From Psammoneis japonica (lineage: Eukaryota), in NCBI GenBank assembly GCA_008632985.1, contig QPGO01000010.1, forward strand, positions 496,001 to 560,000: 64,000 bases of DNA, written 5' to 3'. The position numbers were made by a program, and so were the translations under genes. The notes beneath the pieces are model-generated. The model saw nothing but the letters and a program-made list of their open reading frames with translations, ran no database searches and was not told where the DNA came from. Positions 9,101 through 64,000 of the stretch are shown here, one piece after another; within the stretch, counting starts at the first letter, position 1, and every line of letters begins with the position of its first letter.

Positions 9101-9119
9101 GCGGAGTTTAGAAATTCGA

Positions 9120-18385: not shown

Positions 18386-18527
18386 ACGATGGAATTGGCA
18401 TGCTCTAGAAAAGCCTTTACTCTGCCGTTCAGTGGACTGGTAGTCCACTGGCACACTGATGATGCTCCTACCACCTCTTCCTATCTTTTGATGTCACTCG
18501 CGCATCTGCTTTAAGTGCTCGAGCTCA

Positions 18528-18823: not shown

Positions 18824-18855
<32 letters not shown>

Positions 18856-24942: not shown

Positions 24943-25217
24943 NNNNNNNNNNNNNNNNNNNNNNNNNNNNNNNNNNNNNNNNNNNNNNNNNNNNNNNNNN
25001 NNNNNNNNNNNNNNNNNNNNNNNNNNNNNNNNNNNNNNNNNNNNNNNNNNNNNNNNNNNNNNNNNNNNNNNNNNNNNNNNNNNNNNNNNNNNNNNNNNNN
25101 NNNNNNNNNNNNNNNNNNNNNNNNNNNNNNNNNNNNNNNNNNNNNNNNNNNNNNNNNNNNNNNNNNNNNNNNNNNNNNNNNNNNNNNNNNNNNNNNNNNN
25201 NNNNNNNNNNNNNNNNN
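24943..25217. other. Assembly gap preceded by poly-C
   Basis: Run of N. Confidence 1.
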
Positions 25218-26690
25218 CCCTTTGTGACATTTAAAGGCTGCAACACGTCGCCGTGATGCATCAACTCTCATTGGCAACTGTGTGTTGCACTCCTCCCCAT
25301 GTGTCGCGCGTCCATGCGGCTCTTTGCTGACGTGCGCTGACACTGCACGGTTTTGGCGGAACAGTGTGGGTGCACACGAAGGAACATGCAGAACTGCACA
25401 GAGTTTTTTCCGCATTCGACAGTGATCAACGTTGCTGCAGACAACTCCCACTCAGGGTTTCGAACCCCTGGCCTCCTGCCTGATGGTTGCGATGAACCAC
25501 TCCGCTGTGAATTCACAACGCAGCATGCATGCAGACAAAAGGTCATTTTTGTCACACCCTTTGTGACATTTAAAGGCTGCAACACGTTGCCGTGATGCAC
25601 TGGCTCTTGTCAGCAACTGCACATTGCACCAGCCCTCCTCTCTCTGCCCATCTCTTGCTGCTTCTCCAGCACCCAGCTTGCCTCTGCTTGTGCCATTGCC
25701 GCTCAGCACAAGCTCTGCCTTCCGCCCTGCCGCTTTCCTTTCTTGCCTTGTTGGCGCGCCCCTTGCTCCTGTGGCCACGCCTCCCTTGAAGCCTGCAACA
25801 ACAACACCTTTCCTTGCCAGCATGGCCGCAGATCAAAGCTGTCCAGCAGCTTTTCTTGTGGTGCCATCTTGATCTAATCTCTCAGATCCTGTGCTCTCTT
25901 GCCAAACTTTGTCGCTTGCCCAAGACAATGCTCACCTCAAGCATGTGAGCCTCGCCCCTTTCTGCTCACTCTTTCATTCCACCAAAGCTGGCATGATCTC
26001 CTCGCCCCTTTCAGCACCCCTTTCCACCCCCTTCATCATTGCTGCACCGCTGCTGATGTCGCTGTTCTCAAAGCTCCCTTGCTCTCCTCCCAGTCTTCCT
26101 CTCCTGTTTCAAGTGAGGTGTGCCACTCGAGCGCGAGGCCGAAGTTCCTTGGACCTTCCAACCCTTTGACAGACGGCTCCCTTGCTGTTGAGTCTCTCAA
26201 CAGTGATGGGATCTTTGTTCTCTCCTTTGCAGTTGATCACCTCAGAGGTCTTGGACTCTTCTGTTGTCAGCTCCTTTTCAGCTCTTTGCTCTCATCTGCT
26301 CCTTGTTCCCACCCCAAGACCCCTTGGACATTTCCTTCTTCTCGTCACAACTCCAATGCTTCCTGCTCAGCTTTTCTCCATGCCCCCTTGCTTTCCCTTT
26401 GGCTCCTGTCCTTCTTTCTGCTGACTTTGTTTGGAGTCGCCTCTCCAATGAGTGCTGTGGTCATGTGCACCCCTCTTCTTCCCTGCCCCAGTGGGCCATC
26501 CAAACCCTTGGCAGCAACGTCACCCATCGTTTTTCTTCCCATGCTCTGTGATGTTTCTCTTCCCTCCACACTGAATCCTCTCTGCCCCATTCCCTCACCA
26601 AGCACCCTGCACGCTTCGTCATGCATGTCCCTTCCACTCCTCTGCCTCAACAACAACTGCACATCAAAAGTTGTTGGTTCATGAGGCGCA
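25218..26690. mobile_element. TpA-depleted repeat domain 2 (unclassified element; 43 bp direct repeat with 339 bp period; strong pyrimidine skew on + strand)
   Basis: 25218-25260 matches 25557-25599 except one CG->TG change; TpA nearly absent while CpG is common. Confidence 0.55.
25446..25512 (-). pseudogene. tRNA-derived sequence (SINE head or tRNA pseudogene)
   Basis: Minus strand TTCACAGCGGAGTGGTTCATCGC...CAGGGGTTCGAAACCCTGAGTGGGA: A-box-like CAGCGGAGTGG (25507-25497) and B-box GGTTCGAAACC (25466-25456) within a T-arm-like hairpin; anticodon arm not intact. Confidence 0.5.
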
Positions 26691-27122
26691 TGCATTGTAA
26701 ATTGGACAATAAACTAGTTTGACCTTTCTAAACTCAGAGTGCAGAGAAAGGAATGGCGCAACAATCTCACCACAGCAGTGAAGGTATGAGCTACGAGTTC
26801 AAAATAATGTTGCCTTTTCAACGTATTGTCTCAGGCTACTAAAGCCTAAGATAGACCTCTCTCTAGAGCATTGCTTCTCAACACACAAGACATAACCCTT
26901 TCCACCATGCATGCATCATAGGAACGTATAAACTAATGTTACGATAAGACCTATGAAACCCACACTCTAGCGTCAACGCTACCTCGCCGTAGAGGTGTTA
27001 CCCTGTGTCCGCCTCTGTTGTGTTTTCAATCGATGCCCAAAGTCAATGCATGCAGCACAAGTAAGTGTCTCGGTTCGTAAGAAGCTCTTTTGCCTGAGAC
27101 ACACACGCATACCTATCTTTCT

Positions 27123-28346: not shown

Positions 28347-29036
28347 GGTTGTTGCTTTCAGCTTGCTGTTTTTGCTGTGGTGTGTGGGGAGAGGAGACTG
28401 GAGAAAAAGGAGGGGGCGGCGCAGACAAAAAGGAGTTGAAAGCTTTTTGCGCGAGCAATTCACACACACACGAACACCCAAACAAAGAACCAGAGCAAAG
28501 AGGGGCCTTGCGATTGCTGCATGCCGCATGTAACATGCTCAAGAACCAAAAACTTGAGTGCATGTTATCAGAAATGTTGTTAGCAGGCTACTGTAGTCGA
28601 ACCTCTGTACAGTCGTTGTTGTTGCTTCGCATGAAATCATGCTGTTAAGCAATCACACGGCAGCCTCGCGAAATCACCGGAATCACACGAAATCACGCAC
28701 TCGCGCTGACACTCGCCTCGAAATCAAACTCCCCTCGGTTCGTGTACGAGTGTGGGAGAGACGATTCCGTTGAGCGGCGAGTGCAGATTACGCGAGGAAT
28801 CAAACAGCAACAGTGCAGGAGTTGTTTTTGTCAAGGGAATTCGTTGAGCACAAGTGTTGTTGCTGTTGTTGATTGTTGATTGTGGGCGTTTTTTTTGCAT
28901 GCCAATGACTGGCGCTCGCAACGGTCTGACATTTGTTTTTGAAGAATCGGTTCTTCACACATTTGTTGCTCTCACACTGAACATTGTGATTGTTGATTTT
29001 GCTCCACAACAGATTTGACAGTGCTGTTTGTGAAAG

Positions 29037-31466
29037 ATGAATTTTGAAGAAGAAAGTGGCTTTCATCTGCCTGATCATTCTTCAAGCAGCTCGTCTGAAG
29101 AAGAAGAAGAAGACAAACAAGATGCCCCGCCACTGATGCAAAACACGGAAATGGCAGTCAAATCTCTTGTGGGCTTGCACAACACATCAACATCCAATTC
29201 TGTTGCTCCACCTCAAGCTGGCTGCTTTGGCTGCAACGACAATGCTGATGGATGCCACGAATGTCAGGGGAGCAACGGGTCGTTTTCATGTGCCAATGCC
29301 AATGCACCAGCGGCACATGCAGCGGCACCAACAACAGCTGTGGCACCCACTGCTGCACCTGCTTTGGAGTGCAATGATGAGCAAATGTCGAGAGAACTTG
29401 CTGAAAGCCTTCACTGCGGGACGTGTTCTGGCTCAGATCTCACTGCGCAAGAAATGCCAAACATCAAGAAGGCTTCCAGTGTTTCAGCTTGGCATTTGAA
29501 TGCAAGAGATGAGTTGGAGGTGCACTTTTTTGCAACAATGGAAGAGTCAGGCAGTGAGAGGCTGCAGCATCTTCTTGAGGAAATTGAGTCGGAAGAGTCC
29601 GTTGAGACTGTGCGGGTTTTCTACAAGACACTTGCGGGAGAGAAGATGCAACACAAGCATGAGATTTTGAATTTCTGTCTTGTTCTCATTGTCCATTGCT
29701 GGCACAATGTAAAGACTGGTGAAATGCATGAGCCATCCATGTTCACCCAGTGCGCGAAGCAACTTTTTCAAACCTTTGCGAGACACGGCATTCAGCACAA
29801 GTGTGATGACAAGGAATTCAAACAGAACGGCGGCTGGTGCTCCATTTTGGAAGATGAATGGAAGAAGCAGCAAGAGGAGGACAGGTCTTTTGGCATTGGC
29901 AAGAACAAGTCACACGTCGACATCAGGGCAGATCAGAAGACAGCGGCAAAAATCTGTGAAGGCAAGTTTCGACCCATGGAAGACTGCGAAGACATGACAC
30001 CTGCTTTGATTTTTGTGCTGGGGCGCCATTTTGGGTTGCGTGGCAATGAGGAGATTGCCCATCTCACATGGGACAATGTGACAATGGGCAAGTGTGAATC
30101 TGGACCGGATGTCAGGAAGTTGCAAGTCAGGGTGCAACTTGATGAGGACAAAGTCAACAAACTGAGGATCAAGAGTCCCATGCTCCAAAAGCAGCTCCTC
30201 GATGGAATGCATGTTCGTGAAATGCCCATGAATCCCGTGTGTCTGCTCAAGCTCATTGCTGTGTGTCAGACTTGGTGTCCTCCGGATCAAGAGAGATTTT
30301 TGCACCAAGAGGTGATGAACAAGCAAAAGCAGCAGCACAAGCTGGATGGTCTGGCCTGTCTTGCAAGGCCTGGAAAGACTGCGGGTGTCATTGGCGTCAA
30401 TGTTGTTTTGGACAAAATGAAGTGCATTGCTCAGCTGCATGGTTTTGACAACTGGGAGCAAGCGACAAGCCACAGCAACCGTGCATTGATGACCACTTTG
30501 TTGGCATCTGCTGACTTGCACCCAAAAGAGATGCAAACTCGTGTGAGGCACAACTGGTCAGAGAGCCAGTTGCTGCATGTTCGTCAAAGTGATCTGCTTG
30601 ACCATCAAGTGCAGAACGCGCTGGCTGGGAATCAGGGCGCGTCGGTTCAGAGCTTGTTGGTTCAGGACGCATCGGTTCAGAATGCATCTGTTCAGAATGT
30701 GTCCGCTCAGAATGTGTCGGTTCAGGATGTGTCAGCTGCAGCCACCTTTGCGGGTGGAGCTTCTGTTCCAGCATCATCTGTGGCAACCTCAGAGTCCAAC
30801 AAGACTGCATCATTGAGCGATCATTCCGCGCCATCCTCGGAATTGGGGAGTTTGCACACAGAGAAAATGGAGCCAGAGTCTGCTGTTCAGATGCTGGAAT
30901 CTCAAGTTGCTGATCTAGAATCTGCCAATGCTGTGCTGAAGTTGAAAAACAATGACCTTTCTGAATCAACATCTTTGGTGGAAAAGGAAAATGCTGAGCT
31001 CCGGGAACTGGTCAACAAAATGAACATGAAAGATTCGATCATTTCTTTGGAGGATCGCGTTGGTCACTGCAATGACTCCATTGAGAAAATGAAGAGCTCT
31101 GTTGAGACAATGGACCAGAAGTGTTGTGACACCCAGAAAGAGACAGTGCAGCTGCAGTCGAATCATGCAACTTTGGAGTTGAAGCTTGAGACTGTGCAAG
31201 GAACAATTCAAAACCCATGTCTGACCATCAGCAACCAAGATCATCAAGAGATCCGCCATCTCAAGGACACCATGGCACAAGCAGATGTGAAATGTCAAAC
31301 CCTCAAAGACAAGGTTGCTCAATCTAAGCTCCAAGAAAAACAACTCTTGGGTGAGTTCATTTTTTGGAGGAGCGAATTCAAGACTTCAGGGGCGAGAAGA
31401 GGAGAGCCGCGGCGGGTGTGGGATGATGTGGGACAATGTTCTTTTGGACAAAATGGGGAAGGATGA
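29037..31466 (+). pseudogene. Tyrosine recombinase (Crypton/DUF3504-like) with C-terminal coiled coil; open frame but predicted catalytic Tyr reads His
   Basis: GEMHEPS (cf. Crypton G..YEP), FGLRG.EE (R at 30039), HSNR (30471-30482), RH.....SQLLH (CAT at 30576-30578 where Tyr is expected). Only one Tyr in 809 aa. Confidence 0.75.
30639..30728 (+). repeat. 15 bp coding tandem repeat x6 (ASVQN-like)
   Basis: gcgtcggttcagagc / ttgttggttcaggac / gcatcggttcagaat / gcatctgttcagaat / gtgtccgctcagaat / gtgtcggttcaggat. Confidence 0.9.
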
Positions 31467-32842
31467 TGTGACAGTGTCACCAGTGTGTTGGCATTGCCAG
31501 CATTTTAGTGTTGCCAGTGTTTTAACTTGCTGGACGGCAAACAATGCCACGATCCAAAAAGTGAGCTGTGGTGTGTTTCGAACATTGTCTTCCACACTGT
31601 TTGATGTTTGAATTTTGTCATTCACAGGTGTGTCTCGCATGTGTGATGCAATTCACCCTTTTGTGTAATTCTGAAAATGCCAGGCAATGACAATGTCGTT
31701 TGCAATCTTCAGGACCTCATGAATCTGAACACATGATGTGCTGACCAAGCATCTGGCCGTGGGGAGTTTGGGGTGGGGAGGAGGGGTCGGGAAAATTCGA
31801 GAACCTGATGGATTGCCCGACGTAAGTCCTGCGTGTTTTTCACATTGGCGAACTTCAACCGTGGTGATTTCTGGAATCACCGCGCTTGCCGTGTTGTGAT
31901 TCTGGAGTCGGTCACGGCTCCGGTCACCGCGCCAATTGCTCGCTGATTCTCACGACACGGCAAGTGTGTCATGGCCAAGACTCCAAGCCCAGCAAGGAGA
32001 GAACCCTCATCCTTGGCTGGACCGAGAGTCACCACGCAAAAGCAGGAGTGAACGGGTGAAGGAAGGATGACGGATGAATGACAGACAGATGATGGACAAG
32101 ACGAGCGAGCAAAACTGGCCCTGACCCTCATTGTCTGGCAGGTTGGGAGACACCACGGAACTGTCGGGGCGTCTCCAAGGAGATGCCAACGATGAAAATT
32201 GAAAACCCTCCACTCCCAATCCCGTCAGCACACAGCGAAAAGGGAGCCAATTGCTTGGCACCAGCGATTCCAAGCCTGGCCCCACATCCCAATTGCTTCA
32301 CCTGCTGGCGACCATTTTCATCGTGCCAACATCATGAGTCTACATCCGGCTGTGAACATTGCGGATGTGCTGGACCATCTCCACGAGTTGCATCGATGGA
32401 CTGGAGTCGCTTGCACTGTGCCATGTCATCGGAGTGCTGACAGCCGAGGCGGCGGCAGGGAATCCGTGGGATTCTCGCGTGACTGGTTTTTCGGTCATTG
32501 TTCGTGCACCAGTGAAATAATGTACTGTGATTTCACGTGGCTTCTACGTAACGAAAAGTCATAATGACCCTTTTGATCGTACATTCTACATGATTCCCGT
32601 ACAAAACCAATGACTGCACAGTTGCTGTTTGATTCCTTAACAAAATGACTTTGCAGTGAGACGGACAGACGACTATTCGTTACTGTAGGGCGGGCAGGCG
32701 GGGGCGCGCGCCAGCGAGGCGAAAAGCGAGCGTGCTCCAGTGCGCGCCAGCGGTCATACGTAGGATTAATACTGCATTCTACGTGGAAGGCACAACATAC
32801 CGTTTTCCAGTTTTTCTGCACATCAGGCATCAGGAGGCGACC

Positions 32843-43759: not shown

Positions 43760-44358
43760 NNNNNNNNNNNNNNNNNNNNNNNNNNNNNNNNNNNNNNNNN
43801 NNNNNNNNNNNNNNNNNNNNNNNNNNNNNNNNNNNNNNNNNNNNNNNNNNNNNNNNNNNNNNNNNNNNNNNNNNNNNNNNNNNNNNNNNNNNNNNNNNNN
43901 NNNNNNNNNNNNNNNNNNNNNNNNNNNNNNNNNNNNNNNNNNNNNNNNNNNNNNNNNNNNNNNNNNNNNNNNNNNNNNNNNNNNNNNNNNNNNNNNNNNN
44001 NNNNNNNNNNNNNNNNNNNNNNNNNNNNNNNNNNNNNNNNNNNNNNNNNNNNNNNNNNNNNNNNNNNNNNNNNNNNNNNNNNNNNNNNNNNNNNNNNNNN
44101 NNNNNNNNNNNNNNNNNNNNNNNNNNNNNNNNNNNNNNNNNNNNNNNNNNNNNNNNNNNNNNNNNNNNNNNNNNNNNNNNNNNNNNNNNNNNNNNNNNNN
44201 NNNNNNNNNNNNNNNNNNNNNNNNNNNNNNNNNNNNNNNNNNNNNNNNNNNNNNNNNNNNNNNNNNNNNNNNNNNNNNNNNNNNNNNNNNNNNNNNNNNN
44301 NNNNNNNNNNNNNNNNNNNNNNNNNNNNNNNNNNNNNNNNNNNNNNNNNNNNNNNNNN
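43760..44358. other. Assembly gap
   Basis: Run of N. Confidence 1.
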
Positions 44359-44376
44359 CGATGAGACTTAAAAGTG

Positions 44377-49170: not shown

Positions 49171-49908
49171 TTATCCACAAATCCTCTCCCACTCTTCACG
49201 TCCAATTCCAGGCCGGTAGGCTTCTCGAAAGTCCTGCCAGTCAATGCCATCAACACACCAAGCATTTCTAACCTTGATAAAAGACCAACCAATCGCTACA
49301 AGCAATTCATCTTTTTCTAGTGAACGAAGTCGGCACTCAATCCACGCTGTGCCATCCTCGTAGTCGATCGCCTCGGTAGGAAATACAATTTCATACGGAT
49401 TGTCTTCGAGGCCGACAAGAATCCGGAACTGATTGCTGGGTCGACTCATGGCTAGTTCCAAGGAGGAAGCTACTTTTGAAACTGGCGAATCCAGAGGAGC
49501 TCCCACAGATCGAAACAGAAACTCTCGCCATGGCGGGGTGGATGCGAGCAACAAGGTCGTAAAGCCAAAATCCTTACAGGGCGAGTGTGGCTGCTGAAGT
49601 CCATTCAAAAGTTCTGTCACCACTTCTTCTGGAGACAGGGCTATATTAGGAGGTCTCCGCTGTTGTTCTTCTGATATGATTGTCTCCACCGCTGACTTTC
49701 TCCGCCGAAAACGTTCGAGGTAAAAAGCATCCGGGTTGTCAAAAAGTACAGTGTGCTTTTGTCTCGTTCGCTTAGCGACCTTTGGTCTTTTTGACTCGAT
49801 ACAAAATGCATTTACTTTTCCTTTTGACTGTTTTTGATACAGTGCGCTGTACAAGGACAAGCAAAGAAACGTGAACACACGGTTACGGCTGTGACGACTC
49901 CTCCTCAT
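49171..49908 (-). CDS. Conserved hypothetical protein (~245 aa), possible signal/plastid presequence
   Basis: Likely start MRRSRHS at 49908; globular C-terminal half (W..DGIDWQDFRE.YRPGIGREEW). The longer upstream extension lies in mutated repeat DNA. Confidence 0.65.
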   Translation of the reverse strand: MRRSRHSRNRVFTFLCLSLYSALYQKQSKGKVNAFCIESKRPKVAKRTRQKHTVLFDNPDAFYLERFRRRKSAVETIISEEQQRRPPNIALSPEEVVTELLNGLQQPHSPCKDFGFTTLLLASTPPWREFLFRSVGAPLDSPVSKVASSLELAMSRPSNQFRILVGLEDNPYEIVFPTEAIDYEDGTAWIECRLRSLEKDELLVAIGWSFIKVRNAWCVDGIDWQDFREAYRPGIGREEWERICG

Positions 49909-50029
49909 CGTCGTGGGCCCAACCGTCTGTCGCATTCTGAGTTCGCAGGCTCGCAGGTCGCAGGCTCGCTGTCGCACAGAGCTGCTCACATTTTCGAGTG
50001 GAGAACGCCGCGCACCTCCTGGTTGATCG

Positions 50030-53000
50030 CTCTCCAGCAGGGCCAGGAGAGGTGGGAGTGACTGAGCTGTGTTGCAACCGGCAGCTTCCACATCTTGTTC
50101 TTGCTTGTTGGTCAATCTCTCCCTTGAGCAAGAGATCTGACTTCTTGATGAAGCCCTCAACTGAGGTGGAATGATCCCACCGCACACAATGTGCTCAACA
50201 TGTGTGGGCAGCTCTGCCTGCCTCTGAGTGGGCAATCATGGGGGTCTCCTTGATGCTGGCACTCAGTGACGGCAGCGCACATGAGCTTTGCACATCTGAC
50301 CAAAGCAAGCCCATGCCACTGGTGGCTGCATTTCAATTTGTCCAGCTTGGAAATTGTTGCCACGTGCATCTGAGAGCTGGGGGGTCAGAGATTGGCCACA
50401 TTTCCAGGATGTTGGTGGCAGAGGTCAGAGCAGCAACTTCAATGCTTTGCATTTGAGTGTGCAATGATGAGTTGCAATGACATGCTGAGCATTGAGCCTT
50501 GGCTGTGGTGATGACTCTTGAAGCTCCCACTTCTGTTGTTGTTGGAGAGCTTGGCATGTTGTGCTCTTGCCTCTTTTTGCTTTGTGCACCTGCAGCTGGT
50601 GCTGTGTTGCACTCTGCACCTTGGTTTCTGCTCCTTGACTCTGTCTCTTGCTTGCCAAACATCATGTCATTGAAAAGCATGAGCAGCCATGTGCAGATCC
50701 TCCTGTCCTTGTTGGATGTGCTCCATGTGGCTGTTGGAGCATCATCCAGCAGAGTGAGTGGGCAATGCAAGAAACCTGGAAGTGGGTCCATTGAGAAGAT
50801 GCTTCACATCCTGACCTGTTAAATCTGGTGAAACCTGACAAGTGAGTGTGCAATCATCACTGATCTTGCCAACCTTTTTTGTTTTGGTCATTTTGGAGCA
50901 AATCATCTGGTTCATGCAAACTGCATTGTGGCGTCAGCAGGCACCTTCGCACACAATGAGATCAAAGTTTGTTGTGAGAGCTTCCAGGCAAACCACAGCT
51001 GCCATGGCAACCAGGACAAGTGCAACAAGCAGCACAGGAAACCTTGGACAAGGACTCCTTTTTGGTGACATTGGCTTGTTGGCTCAACAGCAGCTGCGCA
51101 TGAGAAGGGCCAAGCACGTTGCAAACCAACAATCTGGGACACCAACAAGGTGCAATGACAAAAGGAGGTGTGCAACTTGGCTTGTGCTGCTGCAAATGTT
51201 TGTGAAGAGAGTTTTCTGTGCCTGCAGCATGCACTTGCACAAAAGCTGTGTGTTTCAGTGCCTGTGCTTCTTGCAAGAAATGTGGGAGTGACAAAGGAGG
51301 GAAAAAGAAGAAGAAGAAGACTGCTTTGGACCAGTCAATCCAGAAGATCTTGCTGCTGCAAATGACAACGAGAGCAACACTGATGTTGCAAAACAAAACC
51401 CTCCAACACAAACTGTGGAGCTGCAAAATCACAAGAACACAGCAACAAAAACTGAAAAGGAAATGTGGCAGGCTGTGGAAGAAGAGTGGGGCAAGAAGGA
51501 CACATTGCTGCAGAGCCCAAGTCCAAGGCAAAAAGAGAAGGTTGGCTCCTCAATCTTGCACATCTCATCCTCTCACTCCCCCCTGGAGCTTGGGCACAAT
51601 TGTTTTGTTCTGGTGCCAAAAATGTTGCTGAGTCATGTGTCTGTGGAATTTTCCCAGCATGTCAAAAAAACAGATGACAAATCACAGGGACATCAAGCAC
51701 AAAAGAAGGCTCCTGCATCACAGTGTGTTGCAGTGAGCTGCACCTGCTGGTGCAGCAGCACTGTCCTTTTTGGAAAGCTGCCGCCCCTGCAACAGCAAGA
51801 CATGCAGAGTTTGAGCCCTGCATGGCACAGCCTCTTCATGCATGAAATGTCAACCTCAGTGACTCTTGGTTGCTTGCAGCAAGAGGAGTTGTGCTGCAGA
51901 GTGCCAAGTTTGACTGTCCTTGTGCGCTGCTGCTGGGACTCAAACTCTGCATGTCCAGACCCATCTGTCATTGGAGCAGCAGTTTTTTTTTTCACAAAAG
52001 ACTGTCACAATTTCCAATCAATCAGATTTGTCACATCACAAGTGTGCCACTCTTTTGCTGCTTTGCTGTGTGGGGCAGTGCAAGGTGTGGCAGGCAGCAT
52101 GAGATGATTGTGCTTGCACCACACAGTGTTTTCAGTGCACACTCTCCTCTCCACCAAAACTGCACTGGATCACAAGCTGCAAAGGCCACCGCCAAGCTTG
52201 TCAAAGATTTGATGATGCCGAATGTGGACAAAAATGAGAATTGAGCAGAGAGCTCTTGCGGTGTCTGCTTCAGTCTGTGTGTTTTGGTTTTTTGTGCTTG
52301 TGTTGGCACGATCTCATGTGGGTGCCCAAAGGAAGTGCCAGATGACTGTAGACATCTGTCTTCTGTCTTTTGAGAGCTGTTTCTTTGAGACCACACAAGA
52401 CAGTTTTGTCAAATGACAAGAATCACATTGTTCTCATGTCATGTTCACCAAGACAACAAGACACAGCTGTTCAGCAAAGCACCCAATTTGGTGGTGAGTT
52501 TTTGAGTCAGTTGATCTGACCACATTTCAATGAAGCCAACGGCCAGACTGAAACCCTTCAAAAGCCACATTGTGTGTGTTGGGGCACACATGCGTTGGTC
52601 AATTTTTGAGAACATTCCCAGAAAGTTGGTTTGCCAAACATCAGTGCTTTGCATTTGAGTGTGCACCATGGTGAGCTGCAATGACATGCTGGTTTTTCTT
52701 GGACCTCAGCTGTTGTTGTTTAAGTTGGGTGGCAAACACCCCCCATTTGCTTTGGCTGTTTCTGCCGCACCACTCTGTCTTGATTTTTCTGCACTTTGAC
52801 TCTGCATCTTGCTTGCCAAACACCACATTGTTGAAAAGCAGCATGAGTGACAACAACACGCACAAGTTCTGTCATTGTTGAATGCTCCTGACATTTCTTG
52901 GGTTGTGGCTGGTGCATGCAAGGATCAACATCTGTGCGAATGTGCTTGCTGGTGGATGTCATGGCCAATGGCCAGCACTCAGATGATTGTCAGGCTTGCC

Positions 53001-56000
53001 TTTGCTTGGGCAATGGCGCCACATCCACGGGGTGCAAAGCCTCCATCTGGCATGCTGCTGCAGCTCCTCCCATGTTGGACTGCATTTGCCAATGCAACAA
53101 TTGGATGGAGTCCATTGCTGACATGACAGATTGGCAAGTGCACTGTTCTTTCTATGGCACAACTTGTTCATGAGCTCCTTCTTCCAAAAAAGAATGAGGC
53201 TGCTCATCAGTGCAACCCTGTCTGCCCTCACTCTTGCCTTTCTTGTGGGCATCCAATGGAAGACAGAGGGACTCTTCTCTGAGGATTGTGCAGGTGCTTC
53301 AACACAATGGACACTGTGCCTCCCTTGCATGATTTTCTTGTTTCACCTCTGGAATCATCATGGCTTGAGGGGCGGATCTCAGCCACCTGTGAGTCGGATG
53401 TTGATCCCATGCTGTGCTCACTTTGGCATGAACAGAGTGACATGTCAGATGGCGACAATTGTTCAATGATGTCTTTTGACACTGCAGAGCACTTTCCAGG
53501 AGATTCTCATGTGTGGGAGTCAGGCCTGCTTGTTTTTCAACATCAGGAAGACAATGCAGTGCAAATCAGCTCACATGTGTGGAGCTCATGGCAAGAATTG
53601 TGGGATGCTCACAACAAGAACATTCATGGTCACAATGCATCAAGACTCCCAAGTCTTCACAGTGTTGGTTGGAAGGAGGCTGAACCAACTGCTGCTGCAC
53701 ACAACAGATGCCAAGAATGCCTGGCTGAGAATCATGGTTGCTCTGGTGAAGGGTGTCAATGAGCACCTTGCTCACTCAACAACAAAAATGCAAAACTGGG
53801 CCTTTATGGTTGAACTGCACCTTGAGGAGAGTCTCAAAGAGGTGAGGCATTTCACCCTTTGTGGCACCACTTGAACCATTGTCACCTGTTTCAGTGGGGT
53901 GTCACCCTCTGACCCCTTGGGCTGGGTGGTTTTGCTCATTTGGGGATTCCCCAAAATGGCCAGGGTGAGAGGGGGTTGCCTCACCCTTTTGGGGAGTGGG
54001 GACAACCCAAATGAGGGCAATTTGGTGGGAACAAATGCCTGAAAAGGCTCGTGGGGAGGGGAACAAAAAACAAGTGGATCGCGGCAATTTCGAATTGATT
54101 TGGTTTGGGCGGGTGTGCTTCTCAATGCAACAGAGTCAAGCGAAGCTGAGCAAGCAATGCATCCACCAGCAGAGAACATCAATCACGCAACACTCTGCAT
54201 TTGGAGCTTGCCACCATTGCTGTTGCACTGTTGCACCACAGATCATTCTTCTTCACTGCTGCTGATGATGATGCCACTGCTGCTGCAGCCCATGAGAGTG
54301 ACAAAGGTCAGCGATCACCCCAGCAAGCATGGCTTTTGCACGTTGCACAGCTGGCTGATGGTTGGCCAGAAGTGGCTCCTCCTCCACCAGAGCTGGCCGA
54401 GCATGCCATCATAGATGTTTTTTGGATCTGCAGATGCACAGATCCAACAGCGCTGCTGCAACAGTGAACGGCGCTGCTGCTGTGCTGCCGCTTGGTCAAC
54501 AAAGCAGCCGCTGACGACTTGCTGATGGCCTTGGCAAAACAGCAACTTCTGTGGCAGCTAACGCTCATCTCTTGGCTGCCACTTGTTCTTGCAAGGAATT
54601 GTGCAGTCCACCATGACACCACTTGGCACAGCTCTGGGAGATCTTGGCATTGCAGGTCTTGACGTGCATCTTCTTGATCTTGCAGAGATGGGGGTGACTG
54701 CTTTCATTGCATTGGGCCCTTTGTGCGACTGCTTGCGCCAGCCACACATCCAACCAGCTGCATCTTTAGACACACATTTGTCATCTCAGATGCTTTTGGA
54801 TTGCTGCTGGGAGCTCTTCGTCATCCTTGGTGACAGCAGCAACACTGCAGTTGACACTCTCATGTGAGCATTGCCCTGCTGCTCTTTGTCACTCATGTGC
54901 CAACAAGCATTTTGTGAGGAAAAGTCAGCCCTGAAATGTGAGCAACAAAGATGAGGGTGCATGAAACTGAATGAAGAGGATGTGGGTGAGCACACAAATG
55001 ACAAGATGCAGCAGCAGATCTCAATGAAAAAAACATGCCGGATGCGCGGCATGAAAAACAAAGAAAGATGCAGCACCAATGTGGCAAGAACGAAAAGATG
55101 CTGCATCAAGGTGGCAATGAATGGAGCAACTGTTGAAGAGACAGCTGATGCAAGGGTTCATTGACTTGTTGGGTGTCATCTGAATGAAAAGATGTGGCTG
55201 CCACACACGTCACAATGAGAAACATGCAGCAGCACCAGCTGTGTGGCATCAGAAAAAAATCAGGTGGCATGAACATGGCAGCAATGAAAATCTGTTGCAG
55301 CTGTGGAGAAGCTGCAGCAGCTGCCATTGTCAAAGATTGGTGCTCCAAAGAACCATTGAAGCAGCAGCATGTGGAGGGTGATGTGTGATGTCTGAATGGA
55401 GCTGACAGCCGCAACATGCATCTGTGGTGCAAGTGTCAAATCGCACAGGGGAAGCACAGGGAATTTCCAGTGCACAAATTTTCATTCATGCATTTGGCAC
55501 CACGTGTGTGACAGAGCATCATTCATCACAATTTCCCAGGAATTGACACTTCCTGTGGAAATTTGTGGTGAAAGGTGGCAATCCTGGGGAACTTTGGGGA
55601 ATCCTGCAGCAAAAGGAACCAAACTGAGCTTCTGGCAATGCCCACACCGCCGGCTGGTCCATGTCAGCTCCCACCACATTGTTGGGTGTGCTGGGAGTGT
55701 GGGTCAACTGCCACCAACCTGGCTGGCAATGGAGAGGCAGCAGCACCAACAAAATTGGATCTGTCATTTTTGTCATTGTTGAATGCTCAAATGGCTGCAC
55801 ACAAACAAAAGGGCCAAGCAAGCAAGCTGCGATCAATGGTGTGGGGCACAGATGTGAGGCACAATGACAAAATGAGGCATCATGGCTTGGTTTGTGCTGC
55901 AGATGTTTGTGACAAGAGCTTCCCACAACTGGAGCATGTTTTTTGGCACTTGTGCTTGCAAAAATGGGGCTGAGGTAAAAAAAGAACAAGCCTGTTTTGA

Positions 56001-59000
56001 ACACTTGTCAAACCAAAAGATCTTGTTGCAAATGAGAAAGAGAATGATGCCACCAACACCATGAGACAAAACCCTCTGCACAGACTGCAGGGCTGCAAAA
56101 TCACAAAAGTGTTGCAACAAAAACTGAAAAGGAGGTGTGGACTGTGGAAAAGAAGAGTGGGGCAAGGGGAGGACAAAACAATGTTGCAGAGCCCAAATCC
56201 AGATTTGTTTTAGAAAACCTGCACCCCATCTTCTCCCCCCCCTTTTCCTCTCCTGGAGGAGCCAGCATGCACTTGCTGCTCTGCTCTTGCCAAAAATGCA
56301 GCTGAGCAATCAACTCTTTTGACATGAGCAAAAACCATTTTGCCAAAGAAGACTTTGCTGCTGTTGCTCATTCACAAGCATGGGGTGGAGCAGCCACTGG
56401 CCAGAAGAGTTGTCCATTGTTGTTCTTGATCTGCAGCTGCTGGACAAATCAGAGATTGAAGCCTGCTTGTGGCACTTTCCTGCTTTGACTGGCAACTTGA
56501 GAACTGGGTGTCATTGTTGGCAAGAGCTGGCCCATTGGTGGTGGTGGGCATGTGGGCAAATGAGAGCAAAATTCATGGACCACATTTGCCCACTTTGACC
56601 AGCCATTGAGACCAAAAACATTTCATCACACTTCATTTCACAGAGGACAATTGCTGGCTGTAACCACAGCACAGCAAACATTCATTGTTGAGCAAACACA
56701 GATCCTGGTGGTTGTTGCCTGGAACCAGTTTGCAGCACTGTTTGCTCTGCCACTGTTGTTGTTGTTGTTGTTGTTGTTTGGACCATCACTCTGCAATGAC
56801 CTTTGCAGGTGTGCAACACAGGGACTCTGACTTTCCTTGAATCTCTCAGCCTGTCACTTTCTCAAAAATTCTTTCCAGAAATCGTGCACACTGGGGAGGG
56901 TTGTCAGTGCTGCGTCTTGCCCTGCCATGCACTTGCAAGTTGTTGCCAAACATTGCCATGGGGGGTGAGCACTTTTTTCTTTTTTTGCTTTTTTTGTGTG
57001 CAGCTGGTGCTTTGCTCTTTTTTCAAATGGTGCCAGTGCCCACATTGACAGAGCTCCTGCTGTGTTGCACACTTGTCCATGTTGTTGGATGGCAGCTGTT
57101 GATCACATGCAGCAACCCTCTTGTTTTGATTTTGTCAACATCTGCAAGAGTGACACACCACTGTCTCACAAAAATTCAGCAGTCTCTCTGCCACCACCCT
57201 CTGGATCTCTTTCCTCTTTGAGTTTCTGTGCATTGTGCCTCCTCTCTCAAAGCTCTGCACAGTGGCTGGTCATGCACCCCCAAAACTCAATGCACCCATG
57301 TCTTTTTGAACAATTGATGAACTCCTTTTCCCACAGCAGGCTCCAATTTTCTCTCTAAAGTCACTGGTGAAAACATGTTTTTTGGCTCCCACCACCACAC
57401 TGGGCTTGTCCAGCCAGCAAATTGCACTTCAATGCAGCAACATTCTTTTGAAGCTTTTCTAAGTCCTTTTTGCACACAATCATGGCAGAGAGGAACTGGT
57501 GGACAGCACACACATTGGTGTCACAATGTCCTCAAGTCATGTTCATGGAAACAACAAGAGAGCTGTTCAGCAAAGCCGAGTGCAATCTGTGCACTGCCTG
57601 GCAGCCAGCATGCATTTGAGGCAGTTAATCTGATCAAATTCTCGTTGTGTGGCAACAGCCAGATTTGTTCAATGCTCTGTGGTGCATGCAATGATTTGCA
57701 GGAGAGGTGGTGGGAGTGACTGAGCCATGTTGTTGCAACCAAAAAGACTTCTTGATGAACAAGACCTCAGCTGAGCATGGATGATCGCGCAACATTGTGT
57801 GCTCACAGAGTGCACACCACAGCTCCTCTCAATGGTGGGTGACAATGCCTCCCCTCAATGCCAGCACTGGGTGATGACAGTGGTGTGGTGTGGTGGGTCA
57901 CTCACCACTCTTTGCTGTGTGTGTGCACACAACACAAGAGCTTCATGGGAGCCTGCCAAAGCAGACTGATGCTGCTGGCCACATGTTTTTTTTCTCAGGT
58001 TGGTGTGAGAGCTCAGGTCAATCATGCCATTTGCCTGAAAAGCCAGCAGCCATGATTCGATGCTCTGCATTGTTCATGCATGTGTGGCAAGTTGTGGCAA
58101 TGTGCCAAACACATCAAACCTTGGCTGTGGCAATGACTCTTGGAGCATTGTTGCCTTTTTGCTTTGGCTCTTGTTGCTGTTTCACTTTGTGTTGGTTTCT
58201 GCTCATTGTCTCAGTTTCTTTCTTGCCACACATCCGTGTTCTTGTTAAAAGCACACACAAGCAGCCACATGCAAATCCTGCCTCCTTTTTGGATGCTTTT
58301 GTTGCCAAAATGCAAAGCACTTCTTTGCAAATCAACATTGTGGGGCATGTTGCAGCAAGGCACAATGTGGCAAATGTGGCAAAAAGAGGCAGAAGACTTG
58401 GTTTGTGCTGCAACAGATGTTTGTGAAGAGAGCTTCTCTCTCCACACTGCACGTGCCTGCACAAAAAATCAAGTTCCTTTTAGCCACTGTGCTTGCCCAC
58501 AAAATGGGGCCAAGGAAAAAAAAAAGATTGCTCTGGGCTGCTGGTCAAAACAAAATGCTCTCCAGTGCAGCTGTGAAAAGGAAGTGTGTGCTGCACAAAG
58601 AACAGTGGGACAAGGAGGGCACACTGCTGCAGTGCTCAACAAATCCAAGAGCAAGAAAAGAAGGTTGGCTCTTGAATGTTGCATCTCACCCCCTTGCTCC
58701 CACCTGGAGCTTGTGTCCAAAATGCAAAATTGTTGCTCTGGTGGCCAAAAATGATGCTGAGTTGCTCATGTCTGAAAACCTTCACACTTGCATCATGTAA
58801 AAAAAAAACAGATGACAAATCACAACACCTGGTGCAGAATGACATGGTCTTTTTTGAAAAACTGCTGTTCCCACCACAGCTGATGGATGTGCAGACATCC
58901 TTTCAGCACCTGTGCTGGCTCACAAAATGGGGCCAAGGCAAGAAAAGAAGAACAAGACTGCTCTGGTCTTGTTGATCCAGATGATCTTGTTGCAAATGAC

Positions 59001-62000
59001 AAAGAGAGGCAATTGTGGCTGTGAGACAAAATCCTCTCCAGTGCAGACTGGCTGTGGGAGGCTGAACAGTCACAAGAGCAATGCAATGAAGATTGAAATG
59101 GAAGTGTGTGCTGTGGAAAAGGAGTGAGACAAGAGTGGGAGAGCACATTGCTGCAGAGCCCAAATCCAAGAGCAAGAAAAGAAGGTTGGCTCTTCAACAT
59201 TGCATCTCACCCTTGTTCGCACATGGAGATTGTGAGCAAAATTGTTGCTCTGGCCAAAAATGCAGCTGAGTCACTCATGTCTGAAACTCTGCCTTCATCA
59301 TGTCAAGAAACAGATGACAAATCACAGAAACAACAAGTGTTCAAGAGAAGGTTCTTGCATTGCAGTGTGTCACAGAGGGCTGCACACTTGCTGGCAAAGC
59401 AGCACTGTCTTTTGTAGAAAGCTGCTGTCTTGACAACAGAAAGACACACAGAGTTTGAGTCCTGGCACAAAGGCAGTGCTTTGAGTGCAGCTCCTGCACA
59501 GCCTCTTCATGCATGAAGTGTCAATCTCAGTGACTCTCACTTGCTTGCAGCAGGAGGAGTTGCACCGCAGACTGCCAAGTTTGACTGCCCCCTTCTTGCG
59601 GTGGCTGCTTCTGGGGCTCTCAAGCTCCACATGTCCAGCTGTCATTGGAGTGGCAGTTTTCCAAAAAAGACTGTCATGATTTCCAATCAATTGAACTTGT
59701 TGCATCACAAGTGTGCTGCTGTCCCTTTGCTGTGTGGGGCACCAGGGAGGTGTTGCATCATGAGATTGTTCTCAGCATTTTGTGCACACCTTGCCACCAA
59801 AACTGTGCCGGATCACATTTGCAAGCTGCCAAGGCCACCACCAAGCTTGTCAAAGAGGCCTGCAATGAAGCAAGATGATGCGAAATGTGGACAAAAACAA
59901 GAATTGTTCAGAGCTCTTGCATGGTGCCGTCTGCCTCAGGCTCTGTGTGTTTTGTTTTTTTTGTGCTTCTTGGTGGCCTTGTGTTGGCATGAGGATCCAT
60001 TTCATGTGAGTGTGTGCAAAGGAAGTGCAAGACAGCTGCAGATGTCCGTCTTCTTCAGAGCACTTCCTTTGAGACCACAAGACATTTTTGTCAAACAAGA
60101 AGAACCACAATGTTTTCTCATGTCATGTTCATGAAGGCAACAAGACACAGCAGTCAAGTGAAGCATGCAGCAATTTAGCAGCGTGCGTTTAAGTCAGTTG
60201 ATCTGAGCACATTCATGCAAAGTTGATTGCCAGACTTCAACCCTTTGATTGACTGCCTGACCACCTGCACTGACAACATTGGTGGTGTTGCTGTGGGTGT
60301 GTTTGTGAAGAGAGTTTTCCATGCCTGCTGCAGTGTGCTTGCACAAAAGCAGTGTGTTTCAGCACTTGGTGTGCTTGCAAGGAATGTGGGAGCACAAGGA
60401 GGCAAAAAAAGAAGAAGAAGACTGTTTTGGACTTGTCAATCCAAAAGATCTTGCTGCTGTAAATGACAAGGAGAATGCACTGATGTTGTGAAACAAGAAA
60501 ACCCTCTGGTGCAAACTGTGGAGCTGCCAAATCACAAGAACCCAGCAACAAAAACTGAAAAGAAAGTGTGGGCTGTGGGAAAGAAGAGTGGGACAAGAAA
60601 GGCACATTGCTGCAGAGCCCAAATCCAAAGCAAAAAGAGAAGGTTGGCTCTTCAATCTTGTGCATCTCATCCTCTCACTCCCTGCTTGCTGGAGCTTGTG
60701 CACAATTGTTGTGTGACAGTGCCAATGATGTTGTTGAGTCATGTCTAAAACTTTGCCAGCATGTCAAATGAAAATGGATGACAGGAAATTCTTTGAACAA
60801 CAAAAACAAAAGAAGGCTCCTGCATCACAGTGCACTGCAGTGAGCTGCACCTGCTGTGAGTTGAAGCAGCGCTGTCTTTTTTGGAAAGCCACTGCCCCTG
60901 CAACAGCAAGACATGCAGAGTTTGAGCCCTGGCACAATGACACTGCTGTGAGTGTGGCTCATGCACAGCCTCTTCATGCATGAAATGTCAATCTCAGGAA
61001 CTCTTGGTTGCTTGCAGCAGGAGAAGCTGTGCCACAGATTGCCAAGTTTGACTGTCCTTGTGCTGCTGGGGCTGCCTCAAGCTTTGCATGTCCAGCTGCT
61101 GTCATTGTTGGAGCAACAGTTTTCCACAAAAGACTGTCATGATTTCCAATCAATCTGAGTTGTCACATCACAAGTGTGCTGTTCCTTTGCTGTGTGGGGC
61201 AGTGTGAGGTGCAGCAGCACAAGATTGTGCTTGCACACAGTGTTTTTGCGCACTCTTTTCTCCACCACCAAAACTGTGCTGGGTCACATTTGTGAACTGC
61301 CAAGGCCATCACCAAGCTTGCAAAAGATTTGATGATTTTGAATGTGAAAAAAATGAGAATTGTGCAGCTGGCTCTTCCCCACTGTCTGCTTCAGTTTGTG
61401 GTGTTTTGGTTTTTTGAGCTTGTGCAGGCATGATCTCATGTTGGTGCCCAAAGGAAGTGCCAGACAGCTGCAGATGTTCATCCTCTTGAGAGCAGCTCCT
61501 TTGAGACCACAAGATCATGTTCTTGTCAAATGACAAGGATCACAATGTTCTCATGCCATGTTCATGAAGATAATGAAACACAGCCATTCAGCAAAGCACA
61601 CAATTTGGCAGTGTGCATTTGAGTCATTTGATCCAACCACATTCCAAGAACATGTTCCAAGGATGTGAGGCCAATGGCCAGACTGAAACCCTTTAAGAGT
61701 CACGCTGTGTGCATTGAGGTGCAAATGAGTTTTGGTCAATTTTTGAGCACATTTCCAGAAAGTTGGTTTGCCAGACATCAATGCTTTGCATGTTTGAGTG
61801 TGCACAATGGTGAGAGTTGCAAGGATGCACTGGTTGTTGGACCTTGGCTGTTGTTGTTGGAGTTGGGCAGCAAACACCGCCCCTTTGCTTTGGCTGTTTC
61901 TGCTGCACTCTGTCTTGATTTTTCTCCTCTTGCATCAGATCTGCTGTGTTCTTGCTTGCCAAACACCACGTCATTGAAAAGTGGCACAAGTGCCACATGT

Positions 62001-63850
62001 GTGCAAGTTCTGTCATTGTCACATGCTCACATTGCTGCCTGCAAACAAAAGGACCCAGCCAGTGAGCAAACTGCAGTCAATGATGGTGTGGGGGCACAGA
62101 CAAGGCACAGCAACAAAATGAGGCATCATGACTTGGTTTGTGCTGCAGATGTTTGCAACAAGAGCTTCCCATGCCCACAGCGTGTTTCAGCACATTTTGT
62201 CCTCTCACCCCCTTCTGGAGGAGCCAGCACACACTTGCTGCTCTCTTGCCAAAAATGCAGCTCAGCAAGTCAACTCTGCTCACATGTGCAAACAACTTTT
62301 TTCCAAAGATGGCTTTGCTGCAGTTGCTCATTTGCAAGCATGGGGTGGAGCACCAGTTGGGAGAGTTGTCCATTGTTGTTGATCTGCAAGCCTGTTCCAG
62401 CTCCAGGTGATCCACGATCCATCATGTGAGGTGCCAGCCAAAAAGTGCATTCAGCACAACAAACTTTTTTAATTTTGATTGTTTCAAAAATGGAAAGGTG
62501 AGTGCACATTAAAAAAATTGTGCACGCTCACCCTTCTGAAGTTGGAGTTTGTTGTGCCAAATGCAAAAATGGGACAGCGATGCATCGTGCCCCTTTTTTG
62601 GGCACCCCCTGGAGCTAGAGCAGGCCTGCAGCTGCACAAATCCAAAGATTGAAGCCCACTGCCAGCTGCAGATCCCTGCTTTAACTGGCAATTTTTAAGA
62701 GCTGGATGTTGTCACTGACAAGAGCCAATCCATTGTTGCTGGTGGCGGTCATTTGGGAAAAAAGAGAACAAAATTTATGGACCACATTTGCCCACTTCAA
62801 CCAGCCATTGAGACCAAAAGTGTTTCATTTGATGGAAGACAATTGCTGGTTGTGGCCACAGCACAAACACTCATTGTTGAGCAAATGCAGAACCTTGCCA
62901 TTGCCTGGATGTTGATTGCAGCACCACACACTGTGTTGTTGTTGTTGTTGTTGCGAGGGACCATCGCTCTGCAACAAGAACCTTTGCAGGTGAGCAACAC
63001 AGCCTCCCCTCCCCACTGCCACCTCTGCCCTCCCTTGAATCTCTCTGCCCGTCACTTTCTTAAATTTTTTCTGGACATCTTACCCACCTGGGAGGGTTGT
63101 CAGTGCTGTCTTGAACTGCCACATGCTTGCAAGTTGTTGCCAAACATTGCCACGGGGAGGTGAGCACTGGTTTTGCCATCTTTTTTGTGCAGCTCTGGCA
63201 CTTTTCTCTTTCTTCAAACATCGCCACATTGACGACAGAGGAGCTCCTCTCTCCTTCTTTTTTCCATGTGTTGTGCACTTGTCAATGTTGTCAGGTGACA
63301 GCTGTTGACCACACACAACAACTCTCTTGTTTTGATGTTGTCAATGTCTGCAAAATTCAGCAGCAGTCTCTCCACACCATGCCATGGGATCTCTTTTCTC
63401 TCTTTGAGCATGTGCATCATGCCTCTCAAAGCTCTGCACAGCTGCTGGTCATCTGCCCCTTGAAACTCAACACACCCATGTGTTTTTGGACAGCAGATGC
63501 ATTCCTTTGCCCACACAGGCTCAAATTGTCTCTCTAAAATCACTGGTGAAAACGTGTTTGTTCTTGGTCCCCACACCAGCACACACTGGGCTTGTCCAGC
63601 TATCAAATTGCATTTCAATGCAGCATGATTCTCTCGAAGCTTTTCCGAGTCCTTTTTGCACACAATCATGGCAGAGAGGAACTGGTGGACAGCACATGCA
63701 TCATTCATGGTGTCACAATGTCCTCAAGTCGAGAGTGCCGTTCACTTGGCCGAGAGGAAGCCGCGTGTGCAATCCATCCACTGCAATCAGCGTGCGTTTG
63801 AGGCAGTCGATCTAATCAAATCCAAATCACGATGGCACGCTAATGGCACG
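50030..63850. repeat. TpA/CpG-depleted domain 4: two diverged head-to-tail macro-units (~50030-57690 and ~57690-63850) with internal duplications
   Basis: 50045-50200 matches 57698-57810; 56220-57640 matches 62200-63825; a 1.2 kb block at ~51190-52450 recurs at ~58900-60140 and ~60300-61570. Confidence 0.8.
52888..55770 (+). mobile_element. 5'-truncated non-LTR retrotransposon insertion with 18 bp target-site duplication
   Basis: Identical TGTCATTGTTGAATGCTC at 52870-52887 and 55771-55788; single empty site at 62011-62028 in the second unit. Decayed C-terminal ORF motifs: LDCICQCNNW...TDWQVH, LVHELL..HQCNPVCPHSCLSCGHPMEDR, RWRQLFN, WQELWDAHNKNIHG. Confidence 0.75.
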
Positions 63851-64000
63851 ACATTGAACATGGGCACGCATCCAGCACAAAGCACAATCTACACTGAACA
63901 TTGTTGAACGTTGAACATTGAACCTTCACTGCGGCGGTTGTGGAGTCAGGGGGTCACATTGCCTCTCCTTTGGTTGTTACCGTTGTATTCTGCCTTGATT

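What the first reader, a model, noticed from the sequence alone, without database searches (positions are those of the whole stretch)
57400..63830. Paired copies polarise the mutation: edge copy keeps TA/CG, internal copy has CA/TG
Seen: gtccagcTAtcaaattg (63601) vs gtccagcCAgcaaattg (57415); gatcTAatcaaat (63813) vs aatcTGatcaaat (57631); cagCGtgCGtttgag (63791) vs cagCAtgCAtttgag (~57609); aaaaCGtgttt vs aaaaCAtgttt. Inference: the edge copy is closer to the ancestor, supporting both TA->CA/TG and CG->CA/TG at DNA level without relying on protein homology.
Basis: partly seen in the sequence, partly recalled or inferred. Interest (0 to 1): 0.75.

Follow-up and report, generated by a model that had tools for sequence, protein, structure and literature searches.

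The report
Diatom repeats lose TA after insertion

Summary
The quoted sites are real: the edge copy has TA/CG against CA/TG at 15 columns, the reverse at 1. But two copies cannot polarise. The edge copy is itself about 80% TA-purged; it abuts the promoter of a live Vma22 gene just past the window. Other evidence proves the direction. Dead Vma22 copies keep 1 of 21 TA and 0 of 33 CG sites. In 30 young Copia copies, 61% of TA against 4% of CG sites are lost at 0.7% background divergence, with 61 three-state TA/TG/CA columns. In 17 LTR pairs, 166 of 178 differences are TA/CG/CA/TG changes, so mutation follows insertion, on both strands, favouring TAY. The signature matches TpA hypermutation in Bigelowiella (bioRxiv 2026); I found no diatom report. 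The scan noted this process many times elsewhere in this genome. Likeliest enzyme: a TadA/ADAT-type DNA adenine deaminase (inferred).

The parts
62626..63821 (+). 'Edge' copy: old dispersed-repeat sequence running into the 5' flank of the live Vma22 gene; TA 8, CG 18 in 1196 bp
   Evidence: distant relatives L003, L004
56431..57639 (+). 'Internal' copy of the same segment; TA 4, CG 3 in 1209 bp
62209..62388 (+). Upstream part of the edge copy, matches 56247-56435 (83%)
62391..62625 (.). About 235-bp high-copy insertion with an 18-bp terminal inverted repeat (2 mismatches, one of them TA against CA), in the edge copy only; MITE-like (label is my reading)
   Evidence: (depth 317-394 against about 65)
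63729..63977 (.). Margin where CG is at genome level (51/kb) but TA is still purged (6/kb); holds the quoted sites 63791, 63795, 63813
   Evidence: change-points
63978..64000 (+). Start of normal DNA: 5' flank of the intact Vma22/CCDC115 gene, whose ATG lies 35 bases past the window end (G000:C6:560035-560616; TA 39.5/kb, CG 58.4/kb); source of the dead fragments below
   Evidence: (PF21730, E 9e-9)
51075..51526 (+). Dead Vma22 fragment, TA/CG purged (5' flank piece at 50589-50732)
55742..56230 (+). Dead Vma22 fragment, TA/CG purged
58111..59169 (+). Dead Vma22 5' flank and coding fragments in four pieces, following the internal copy in the same order as at the live locus
60289..60628 (+). Dead Vma22 fragment, TA/CG purged
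62001..62197 (+). Dead Vma22 fragment, TA/CG purged
60106..60214 (+). Paralog of 63712-63821 (outgroup c60): keeps CG at the columns of 63791 and 63795
61540..61644 (+). Paralog (outgroup c61): TG, CA, CA at the columns of 63791, 63795, 63813
52423..52510 (+). Paralog (outgroup c52): TG at the columns of 63791 and 63813
49884..63977 (.). Whole TA-purged domain (CG-purged 50028-63729) made of rearranged local duplications and repeats

Best explanation
The block 49.9-64.0 kb is a silenced domain of rearranged local duplications (old repeat + Vma22 5' flank + Vma22 pieces). The edge copy is the source locus, continuous with the promoter of the live Vma22 gene, and so lies in the fading margin of the domain. 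SHOWN: two separate processes act on chromosomal DNA after insertion or duplication, on both strands: fast TpA->TpG/CpA (about 23 times the CG rate and about 130 times background, my arithmetic; about 3 times faster at TAY than TAR) and slower CpG->TpG/CpA. INFERRED: the CG loss is methyl-cytosine deamination. The TA loss is A-to-inosine deamination of the A in 5'-TA(Y) by a TadA/ADAT-type enzyme steered to silent chromatin and fixed as G at replication, a genome-defence process like the one proposed for Bigelowiella. Direction and DNA level: about 0.97. Steering by silent chromatin rather than by pairing of copies: about 0.7. Deaminase chemistry: about 0.55.
For: Intact gene against dead copies: of 21 TA sites covered, 1 is kept in any copy and 16 show CA/TG; of 33 CG sites none is kept and 26 show CA/TG; of 67 CA/TG sites none became TA and 2 became CG. 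Top 30 of 42 matches of a young Copia: 61 columns hold TA, TG and CA, 34 hold CG, TG and CA, none mixes TA with CG. At 31 columns with Tyr in at least 70% of homologs the copies read C 324, H 180, Y 306, F 90, W 30 times; at 46 conserved H, C or W columns never Y. 60.6% of TA cells (80 sites) and 4.0% of CG cells (217 sites) are converted at 0.71% background divergence. 17 of 19 LTR pairs have a perfect 5-bp target duplication; their 178 differences are 102 TA~TG/CA, 38 CA~TG swaps, 26 CG~TG/CA, 3 other transitions, 9 transversions; 39 of 40 swaps (all 19 pairs) lie at columns where other LTRs show TA and never CG. AA>AG is not raised (0.45%; CA 0.28%, GA 0.45%). RTAY survives 0 of 140 against 638 of 2222 in gene DNA. 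TadA-derived editors prefer TAC (PMC8065034, passages). No MPG/AAG glycosylase match, control rang in 4 of 14. The live Vma22 gene and three tandem DUF6824 paralogs keep normal TA.
Against: Sequence cannot tell A>G on one strand from T>C on the other. No enzyme is identified: the 9 PF00383 matches look like ordinary deaminases, and ADAT2 is near-universal, so its presence is no evidence. PMC8065034 also says the base after the target matters less than the base before. Strand coordination, expected of a processive single-strand deaminase, is weak (57.6% against 54.4%, p=0.008 within 50 bp; none copy-wide, p=0.89). No methylation or chromatin data. Two Copia copies have normal TA right up to the LTR (L012, L020), which fits sequence-bound targeting as well as chromatin. 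The MPG blank comes from an exon-wise search of a possibly incomplete assembly.
Confidence: 0.55

Rival explanations
1. Same direction and targets, but the lesion is on thymine: T in (R)TA is modified (oxidised to hmU/fU or similar) in silent DNA and is read or repaired as C.
For: T>C at RTA is the same mutation as A>G at TAY, so fit equally. Thymine modification of repeats in dinoflagellates is recalled, not from a call.
Against: No Tet_JBP match, but that control rang nowhere, so it is weak. No known thymine enzyme of this specificity was found.
Confidence: 0.2
2. Error-prone repair synthesis (polymerase-eta type) around deaminated methyl-CpG introduces A>G at TA.
For: TA and CG loss share domains. 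Pol eta mutates WA, and TA carries a WA hotspot on both strands (PMC7884765, passages).
Against: AA>AG is at background. TA loss is 15 times more frequent than CG loss and only weakly correlated with it across copies (rho 0.29, p=0.12). TA-poor margins extend past CG-poor zones at 8 of 11 boundaries. Transversions are few.
Confidence: 0.12
3. RIP-like process: pairing of homologous copies triggers the mutation, with a new chemistry.
For: Host-gene duplicates are hit (Vma22 pieces; a C5-methyltransferase copy, L059). Some element borders are sharp. Several C5-methyltransferase genes are present (27 matches).
Against: The live partner gene keeps normal TA and CG (39.5 and 58.4/kb); margins spread past CG-poor zones at several boundaries; in Bigelowiella the main target is single-copy.
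Confidence: 0.1
4. Opposite direction (CA/TG->TA as in RIP, edge copy derived), editing of retroelement RNA/cDNA before insertion, or a base-calling artefact.
For: For this pair alone some edge TA/CG may indeed be newly made. 5 of 32 TA sites in 50001-63500 read CA/TG in run X1, a number that ordinary change from 3175 CA/TG sites can supply.
Against: Three-state columns, Tyr columns, intact-gene comparison and LTR pairs all point away from TA. Both strands are hit (889 TG, 559 CA on the sense strand) and non-retro duplicates too. X1 contigs reproduce the purged sequence at over 99%.
Confidence: 0.03

Closest known systems
TpA-restricted A>G/T>C hypermutation in Bigelowiella natans (Mettrop et al., bioRxiv 10.64898/2026.01.13.699255; read parts 1-3 of 5 plus a term search)
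   Same: TpA->TpG/CpA on genomic DNA, both strands, confined to regions, leaving TpA-poor, CpA/TpG-rich clusters tied to transposon domains; adenine deaminase proposed, not shown.
   Different: Here a diatom (stramenopile), not a rhizarian. Targets are LTR retrotransposons, other repeats and dead host-gene duplicates, purged to near saturation (rho TA about 0.03-0.05, against 0.45 in the Bigelowiella viral region). CpG decay runs alongside (CpG is not mentioned in that text). A 3' pyrimidine preference is measured here. Evidence here is comparative, there it is a mutation-accumulation experiment. Common enzyme untested.
Repeat-induced point mutation (RIP) of ascomycetes (details recalled; brief mentions)
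   Same: Permanent, dinucleotide-specific transition mutagenesis of repeats and duplicated genes in genomic DNA.
   Different: RIP is C>T and makes TA from CA/TG; this process removes TA. RIP hits both partners; here the live Vma22 partner is untouched.
Methyl-CpG deamination of silenced transposons (diatom TE CG methylation by DNMT5: PMC9998398, passages)
   Same: Accounts for CG->TG/CA here; C5-methyltransferase genes are present.
   Different: Cannot give 61% TA loss at 4% CG loss.
TadA/ADAT and TadA-derived adenine base editors (PMC8065034, passages)
   Same: A>G with preference for TA and TAC.
   Different: Natural TadA/ADAT act on tRNA; genome-scale natural DNA editing by them is not established here.

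Membership tests
Bigelowiella-type TpA hypermutation | A>G / T>C confined to TpA | tested here: met
   TA 60.6% converted; AA, CA, GA 0.3-0.45%
Bigelowiella-type TpA hypermutation | Acts on integrated genomic DNA, both strands | tested here: met
   17 LTR pairs with target duplications, 102 TA differences and 38 swaps; 889 TG / 559 CA
Bigelowiella-type TpA hypermutation | Confined to discrete regions | tested here: met
   TA 2.7/kb against 39.8/kb, sharp change-points
Bigelowiella-type TpA hypermutation | Targets DNA of viral origin | not tested
   No viral insertion examined; targets seen are transposons, repeats and host-gene duplicates
Bigelowiella-type TpA hypermutation | De novo rate about 1000-fold over background, varying between lines; same enzyme | not testable with these tools
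   Only a comparative estimate of about 130-fold (arithmetic)
Fungal RIP | C>T, CA/TG -> TA | tested here: not met
   Direction is the reverse
Fungal RIP | Both partners of a duplication are mutated | tested here: not met
   Live Vma22 gene keeps TA 39.5/kb and CG 58.4/kb; selection on an essential gene may contribute
Fungal RIP | Needs RID/DNMT4 and the sexual cycle | not testable with these tools
   27 PF00145 matches; orthology not tested
Methyl-CpG decay | CG -> TG/CA in silent repeats | tested here: met
   34 CG/TG/CA columns; 0 of 33 CG sites kept
Methyl-CpG decay | 5mC present at these CpG | not testable with these tools
   No methylation data
Polymerase-eta WA signature | AA as well as TA is mutated | tested here: not met
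   AA>AG 44 of 9690 cells, as CA and GA
ADAR/APOBEC editing of retroelements before integration | One-strand bias; two LTRs identical at insertion | tested here: not met
   Both strands hit; LTR pairs differ at TA columns

The most novel reading that the evidence does not exclude
Diatoms carry a dedicated 'reverse RIP': a natural DNA adenine deaminase, steered by silent chromatin, that edits 5'-TAY in any silenced sequence, including duplicates of host genes, within a fraction of a percent of neutral divergence, and that shares its origin with the Bigelowiella process, making genomic A-to-I editing an old SAR-wide defence and a source of a natural adenine base editor.
Probability: 0.35. Interest if true: 0.88.

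Novelty: new variant of a known kind. Interest (0 to 1): 0.6.

Why it matters
Targeted A:T->G:C mutagenesis of chromosomal DNA has one precedent that I found, a 2026 preprint on a distant alga. A diatom case extends it to a second lineage, to transposons and dead host-gene copies, and to organisms with gene knock-out tools, so the enzyme becomes testable. It disables elements in an unusual way (Tyr to Cys/His, stop codons erased, long Tyr-poor frames that mislead gene callers) and would distort LTR dating, since 166 of 178 LTR differences come from the two hypermutable steps. For method: a two-copy comparison in a purged domain cannot give direction, and surviving TA/CG there may be newly made.

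Tried and rejected
1) CA<->TG swaps in the pair (23 of 185 against 13 of 635 other double transitions, p=6e-8) looked like proof of ancestral TA/CG but a purged ancestor gives 16-20 by cycling: rejected for this old pair; valid for young LTR pairs. 2) X1 differences (5 TA>CA/TG, 1 TG>TA, 3 CG>CA/TG, 2 TG>CG, one TG>CA swap, 14 others) cannot give direction and may include assembly errors. 3) Distant outgroups L003, L004 are themselves purged and align poorly. 4) No intact source was found for 62626-63730 or for 59340-60214; six-frame translations showed no clear gene (not searched further). 5) None of 120 Copia homologs from other sources is Tyr-poor (3.3% or more, query 0.69%), so no sign of the process in other taxa from that set; only the best 120 of 1982 hits were seen, so this is no evidence of absence. 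6) Tet_JBP search uninformative. 7) No RNA holder listed. 8) First target-duplication count was mis-indexed; redone. 2 of 21 elements gave no second LTR and 2 pairs without target duplication were dropped. 9) Literature: searches (diatom + TpA + CpG + transposable; RIP + diatom; Bigelowiella + hypermutation + TpA; diatom + retrotransposon + hypermutation + dinucleotide; TpA depletion + A-to-G + genome defense) gave no diatom report in their listings; subscription papers are not covered. The preprint's supplements (mutation list with flanking bases) were not seen, so its 3' context could not be compared. 10) Endonuclease V, ADAR/ADAT1 and Y-family polymerases were not searched.
Full report
Setting. 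The window is G000:C6:496001-560000 of a 91-Mb eukaryote. 24 matches to the silicon-transporter family mark it as a diatom. Gene-rich DNA has 39.8 TA and 55.6 CG per kb; the blocks 750-12900 and 50000-63500 have 2.7 and 6.2, with CA/TG raised from 72 to 118 per kb. The finding lies in the second block.

Observation. All five quoted sites are present. Over 1144 aligned columns (80% identical) the edge copy has TA or CG opposite CA/TG at 6+9 well-flanked columns and the internal copy at 1+0 (p=0.0005 together, 0.125 for TA alone). The edge copy is nonetheless mostly purged (8 TA in 1196 bp), carries a 235-bp inverted-repeat insertion that the internal copy lacks, and has CG where the internal copy has TA at two columns. 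Logan contigs of run X1 (platform not on record, possibly the source sample) reproduce the block with 27 listed substitutions in 15 kb, none at a quoted site, so the purge is not peculiar to this assembly.

What the pair is. 35 bases past the window end an intact Vma22/CCDC115 gene starts (ATG at window-equivalent 64035; PF21730, E 9e-9). Nine dead pieces of this gene and its 5' flank lie in 50.6-62.2 kb, and the internal copy is followed by such pieces in the same order as at the live locus. The block is thus a set of rearranged local duplications, and the edge copy is the source locus, running into the promoter (inference). Change-points put the end of CG loss at 63729 and of TA loss at 63977. 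Three quoted sites lie in this margin; two (63553, 63601) lie inside the purged zone.

Can the pair polarise? No. Outside TA/CG/CA/TG columns the copies differ by 49 transitions in 501 columns, enough to re-create TA and CG from CA/TG. Simulated histories (25 runs each; rates set by me, partly from the Copia estimate) gave, for edge TA, edge CG and swaps: normal ancestor 4.0, 19.6, 48; purged ancestor with partly shielded edge 4.6, 7.1, 16; observed 6, 9, 23. Most of the segment was probably purged before it duplicated. Three short paralogs help at the distal end (order edge, c60, internal, c61, c52): 63791 reads CG, CG, CA, TG, TG; 63795 CG, CG, CA, CA, TT; 63813 TA, TG, TG, CA, TG. These favour CG, CG and TA as ancestral. 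At 63553 the one usable outgroup has CA and at 63601 none aligns. At 63808 and 63646 the internal TA is most simply derived.

What does polarise. (1) Live gene against dead copies: 1 of 21 TA sites and 0 of 33 CG sites are kept in any copy, 16 and 26 show CA/TG; of 67 CA/TG sites, 54 are kept, none became TA, 2 became CG. (2) A young Copia element 2.5 kb past the window (PF07727) has 42 matches (40 of 1000 candidates scored); I used the top 30, ranked by likeness to one mutated copy, over 3001 bp. 61 columns hold TA, TG and CA, 34 hold CG, TG and CA, none mixes TA and CG. A CA/TG->TA process would not give three states. (3) At 31 columns where at least 70% of 60-120 homologs have Tyr, the copies read Cys 324, His 180, Tyr 306, Phe 90, Trp 30 times; at 46 conserved His, Cys or Trp columns never Tyr. 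(4) Of 21 elements examined, 19 gave two LTRs and 17 a perfect 5-bp target duplication; of their 178 differences 102 are TA~TG/CA, 38 CA~TG swaps, 26 CG~TG/CA, 12 others, and 39 of 40 swaps in all 19 pairs fall where other LTRs have TA and never CG. LTRs are identical at insertion (established knowledge), so the changes arose in the chromosome afterwards.

Properties. On 80 TA sites (19 of 99 dropped as ambiguous) 60.6% of cells are converted, on 217 CG sites 4.0%, at 0.71% background divergence: about 23 to 1 in rate, and about 130 times background (my arithmetic). Both strands are hit (889 TG, 559 CA). Mean hazard by 3' base: TAC 0.96, TAT 1.14, TAA 0.33, TAG 0.35; in saturated blocks RTAY is 0 of 140 and YTAR 88 of 140 surviving strand-counts. 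AA, CA and GA show 0.3-0.45% A>G. TA and CG loss per copy are weakly correlated (rho 0.29, p=0.12), strand coordination is slight. TA-poor margins exceed CG-poor zones by over 100 bp at 8 of 11 boundaries, about zero at 2, negative at 1. Of 27 Copia copies with long flanks 22 sit in TA-poor DNA; of the other 5, two have normal TA up to the LTR and three a margin of 300-1000 bp. Three tandem DUF6824 paralogs (72-76% identical) and the live Vma22 gene are untouched.

Mechanism. Shown: direction, DNA level, both strands, context, separation from CG decay. Inferred: CG loss is methyl-cytosine deamination (diatom transposons are CG-methylated through DNMT5, PMC9998398 passages; 27 PF00145 matches). 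Inferred: TA loss is adenine deamination at TA(Y) in silent chromatin by a TadA/ADAT-type enzyme; TadA-derived editors favour TAC (PMC8065034 passages) and no MPG/AAG match was found. No enzyme is identified: the 9 PF00383 matches include TadA-like (L044) and ADAT2-like (L047) frames and a deaminase joined to a 2OG-Fe(II) oxygenase (L046) (the labels are my reading). A thymine lesion gives the same spectrum. Polymerase eta (WA hotspots, PMC7884765 passages) is disfavoured by the flat AA rate.

Comparison. The signature is that of Bigelowiella natans, where 230 of 231 mutations in two viral insertions were A>G/T>C at TpA and an ADAT2 was proposed (bioRxiv 10.64898/2026.01.13.699255, parts 1-3 of 5); that text names no diatom and no CpG. 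I was led to it by scan notes. It works like that process; membership by enzyme is untested. It is not RIP: direction reversed and the live partner spared. Five searches listed no diatom report. The scan has noted this process many times in this genome; those notes are not independent evidence.

Verdict. Observation confirmed; interpretation partly supported (right direction, insufficient argument). The underlying process is real and striking, a new variant of a kind described once; this pair is a weak witness to it. Interest 0.6.

Noticed in passing
window 29034-31466 +: 810-codon frame with one Tyr by eye in a TA-purged block; no Pfam match; tyrosine-recombinase-like motifs, Crypton label recalled and also in note e1-7690837.
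   Followed up: partly
L059:1069-2163 - (G000:C301): TA-purged, Tyr-free dead-looking copy of a C5 DNA methyltransferase gene with CG largely intact; intact relatives L055, L056; further broken matches on C297, C10, C28.
   Followed up: partly
L046:313-1785 - (G000:C79): One open frame joins a CDA-fold deaminase domain to a DIOX_N/2OG-Fe(II) oxygenase; probably small-molecule metabolism, but worth a look as a candidate.
   Followed up: partly
window 16164-23775: Three tandem DUF6824 paralogs, 72-76% identical, with normal TA and CG: duplication alone does not trigger the purge.
   Followed up: yes
L005:3500-9196 (2.5 kb past the window end): Copia element with 276-bp LTRs and a 5-bp target duplication, shorter than most family members; TA purged inside, normal TA in the adjacent flank.
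   Followed up: yes
window 62391-62625: High-copy 235-bp element with 18-bp terminal inverted repeats; one arm has TA where the other has CA.
   Followed up: partly
window 25251-26700 and 31787-32517: Stretches with TA nearly absent but CG partly or fully kept.
   Followed up: partly
window 9093-10438 and 12193-13085: Tandem-like repeats of about 200 bp and a duplicated 350-bp piece at a domain edge.
   Followed up: no
L042/L043 (G000:C41, C317): The same dCMP-deaminase-like gene scores identically on two contigs, suggesting uncollapsed haplotypes in the assembly.
   Followed up: no
window about 24940-25220 and 43760-44360: Two runs of N (874 bases in all).
   Followed up: no
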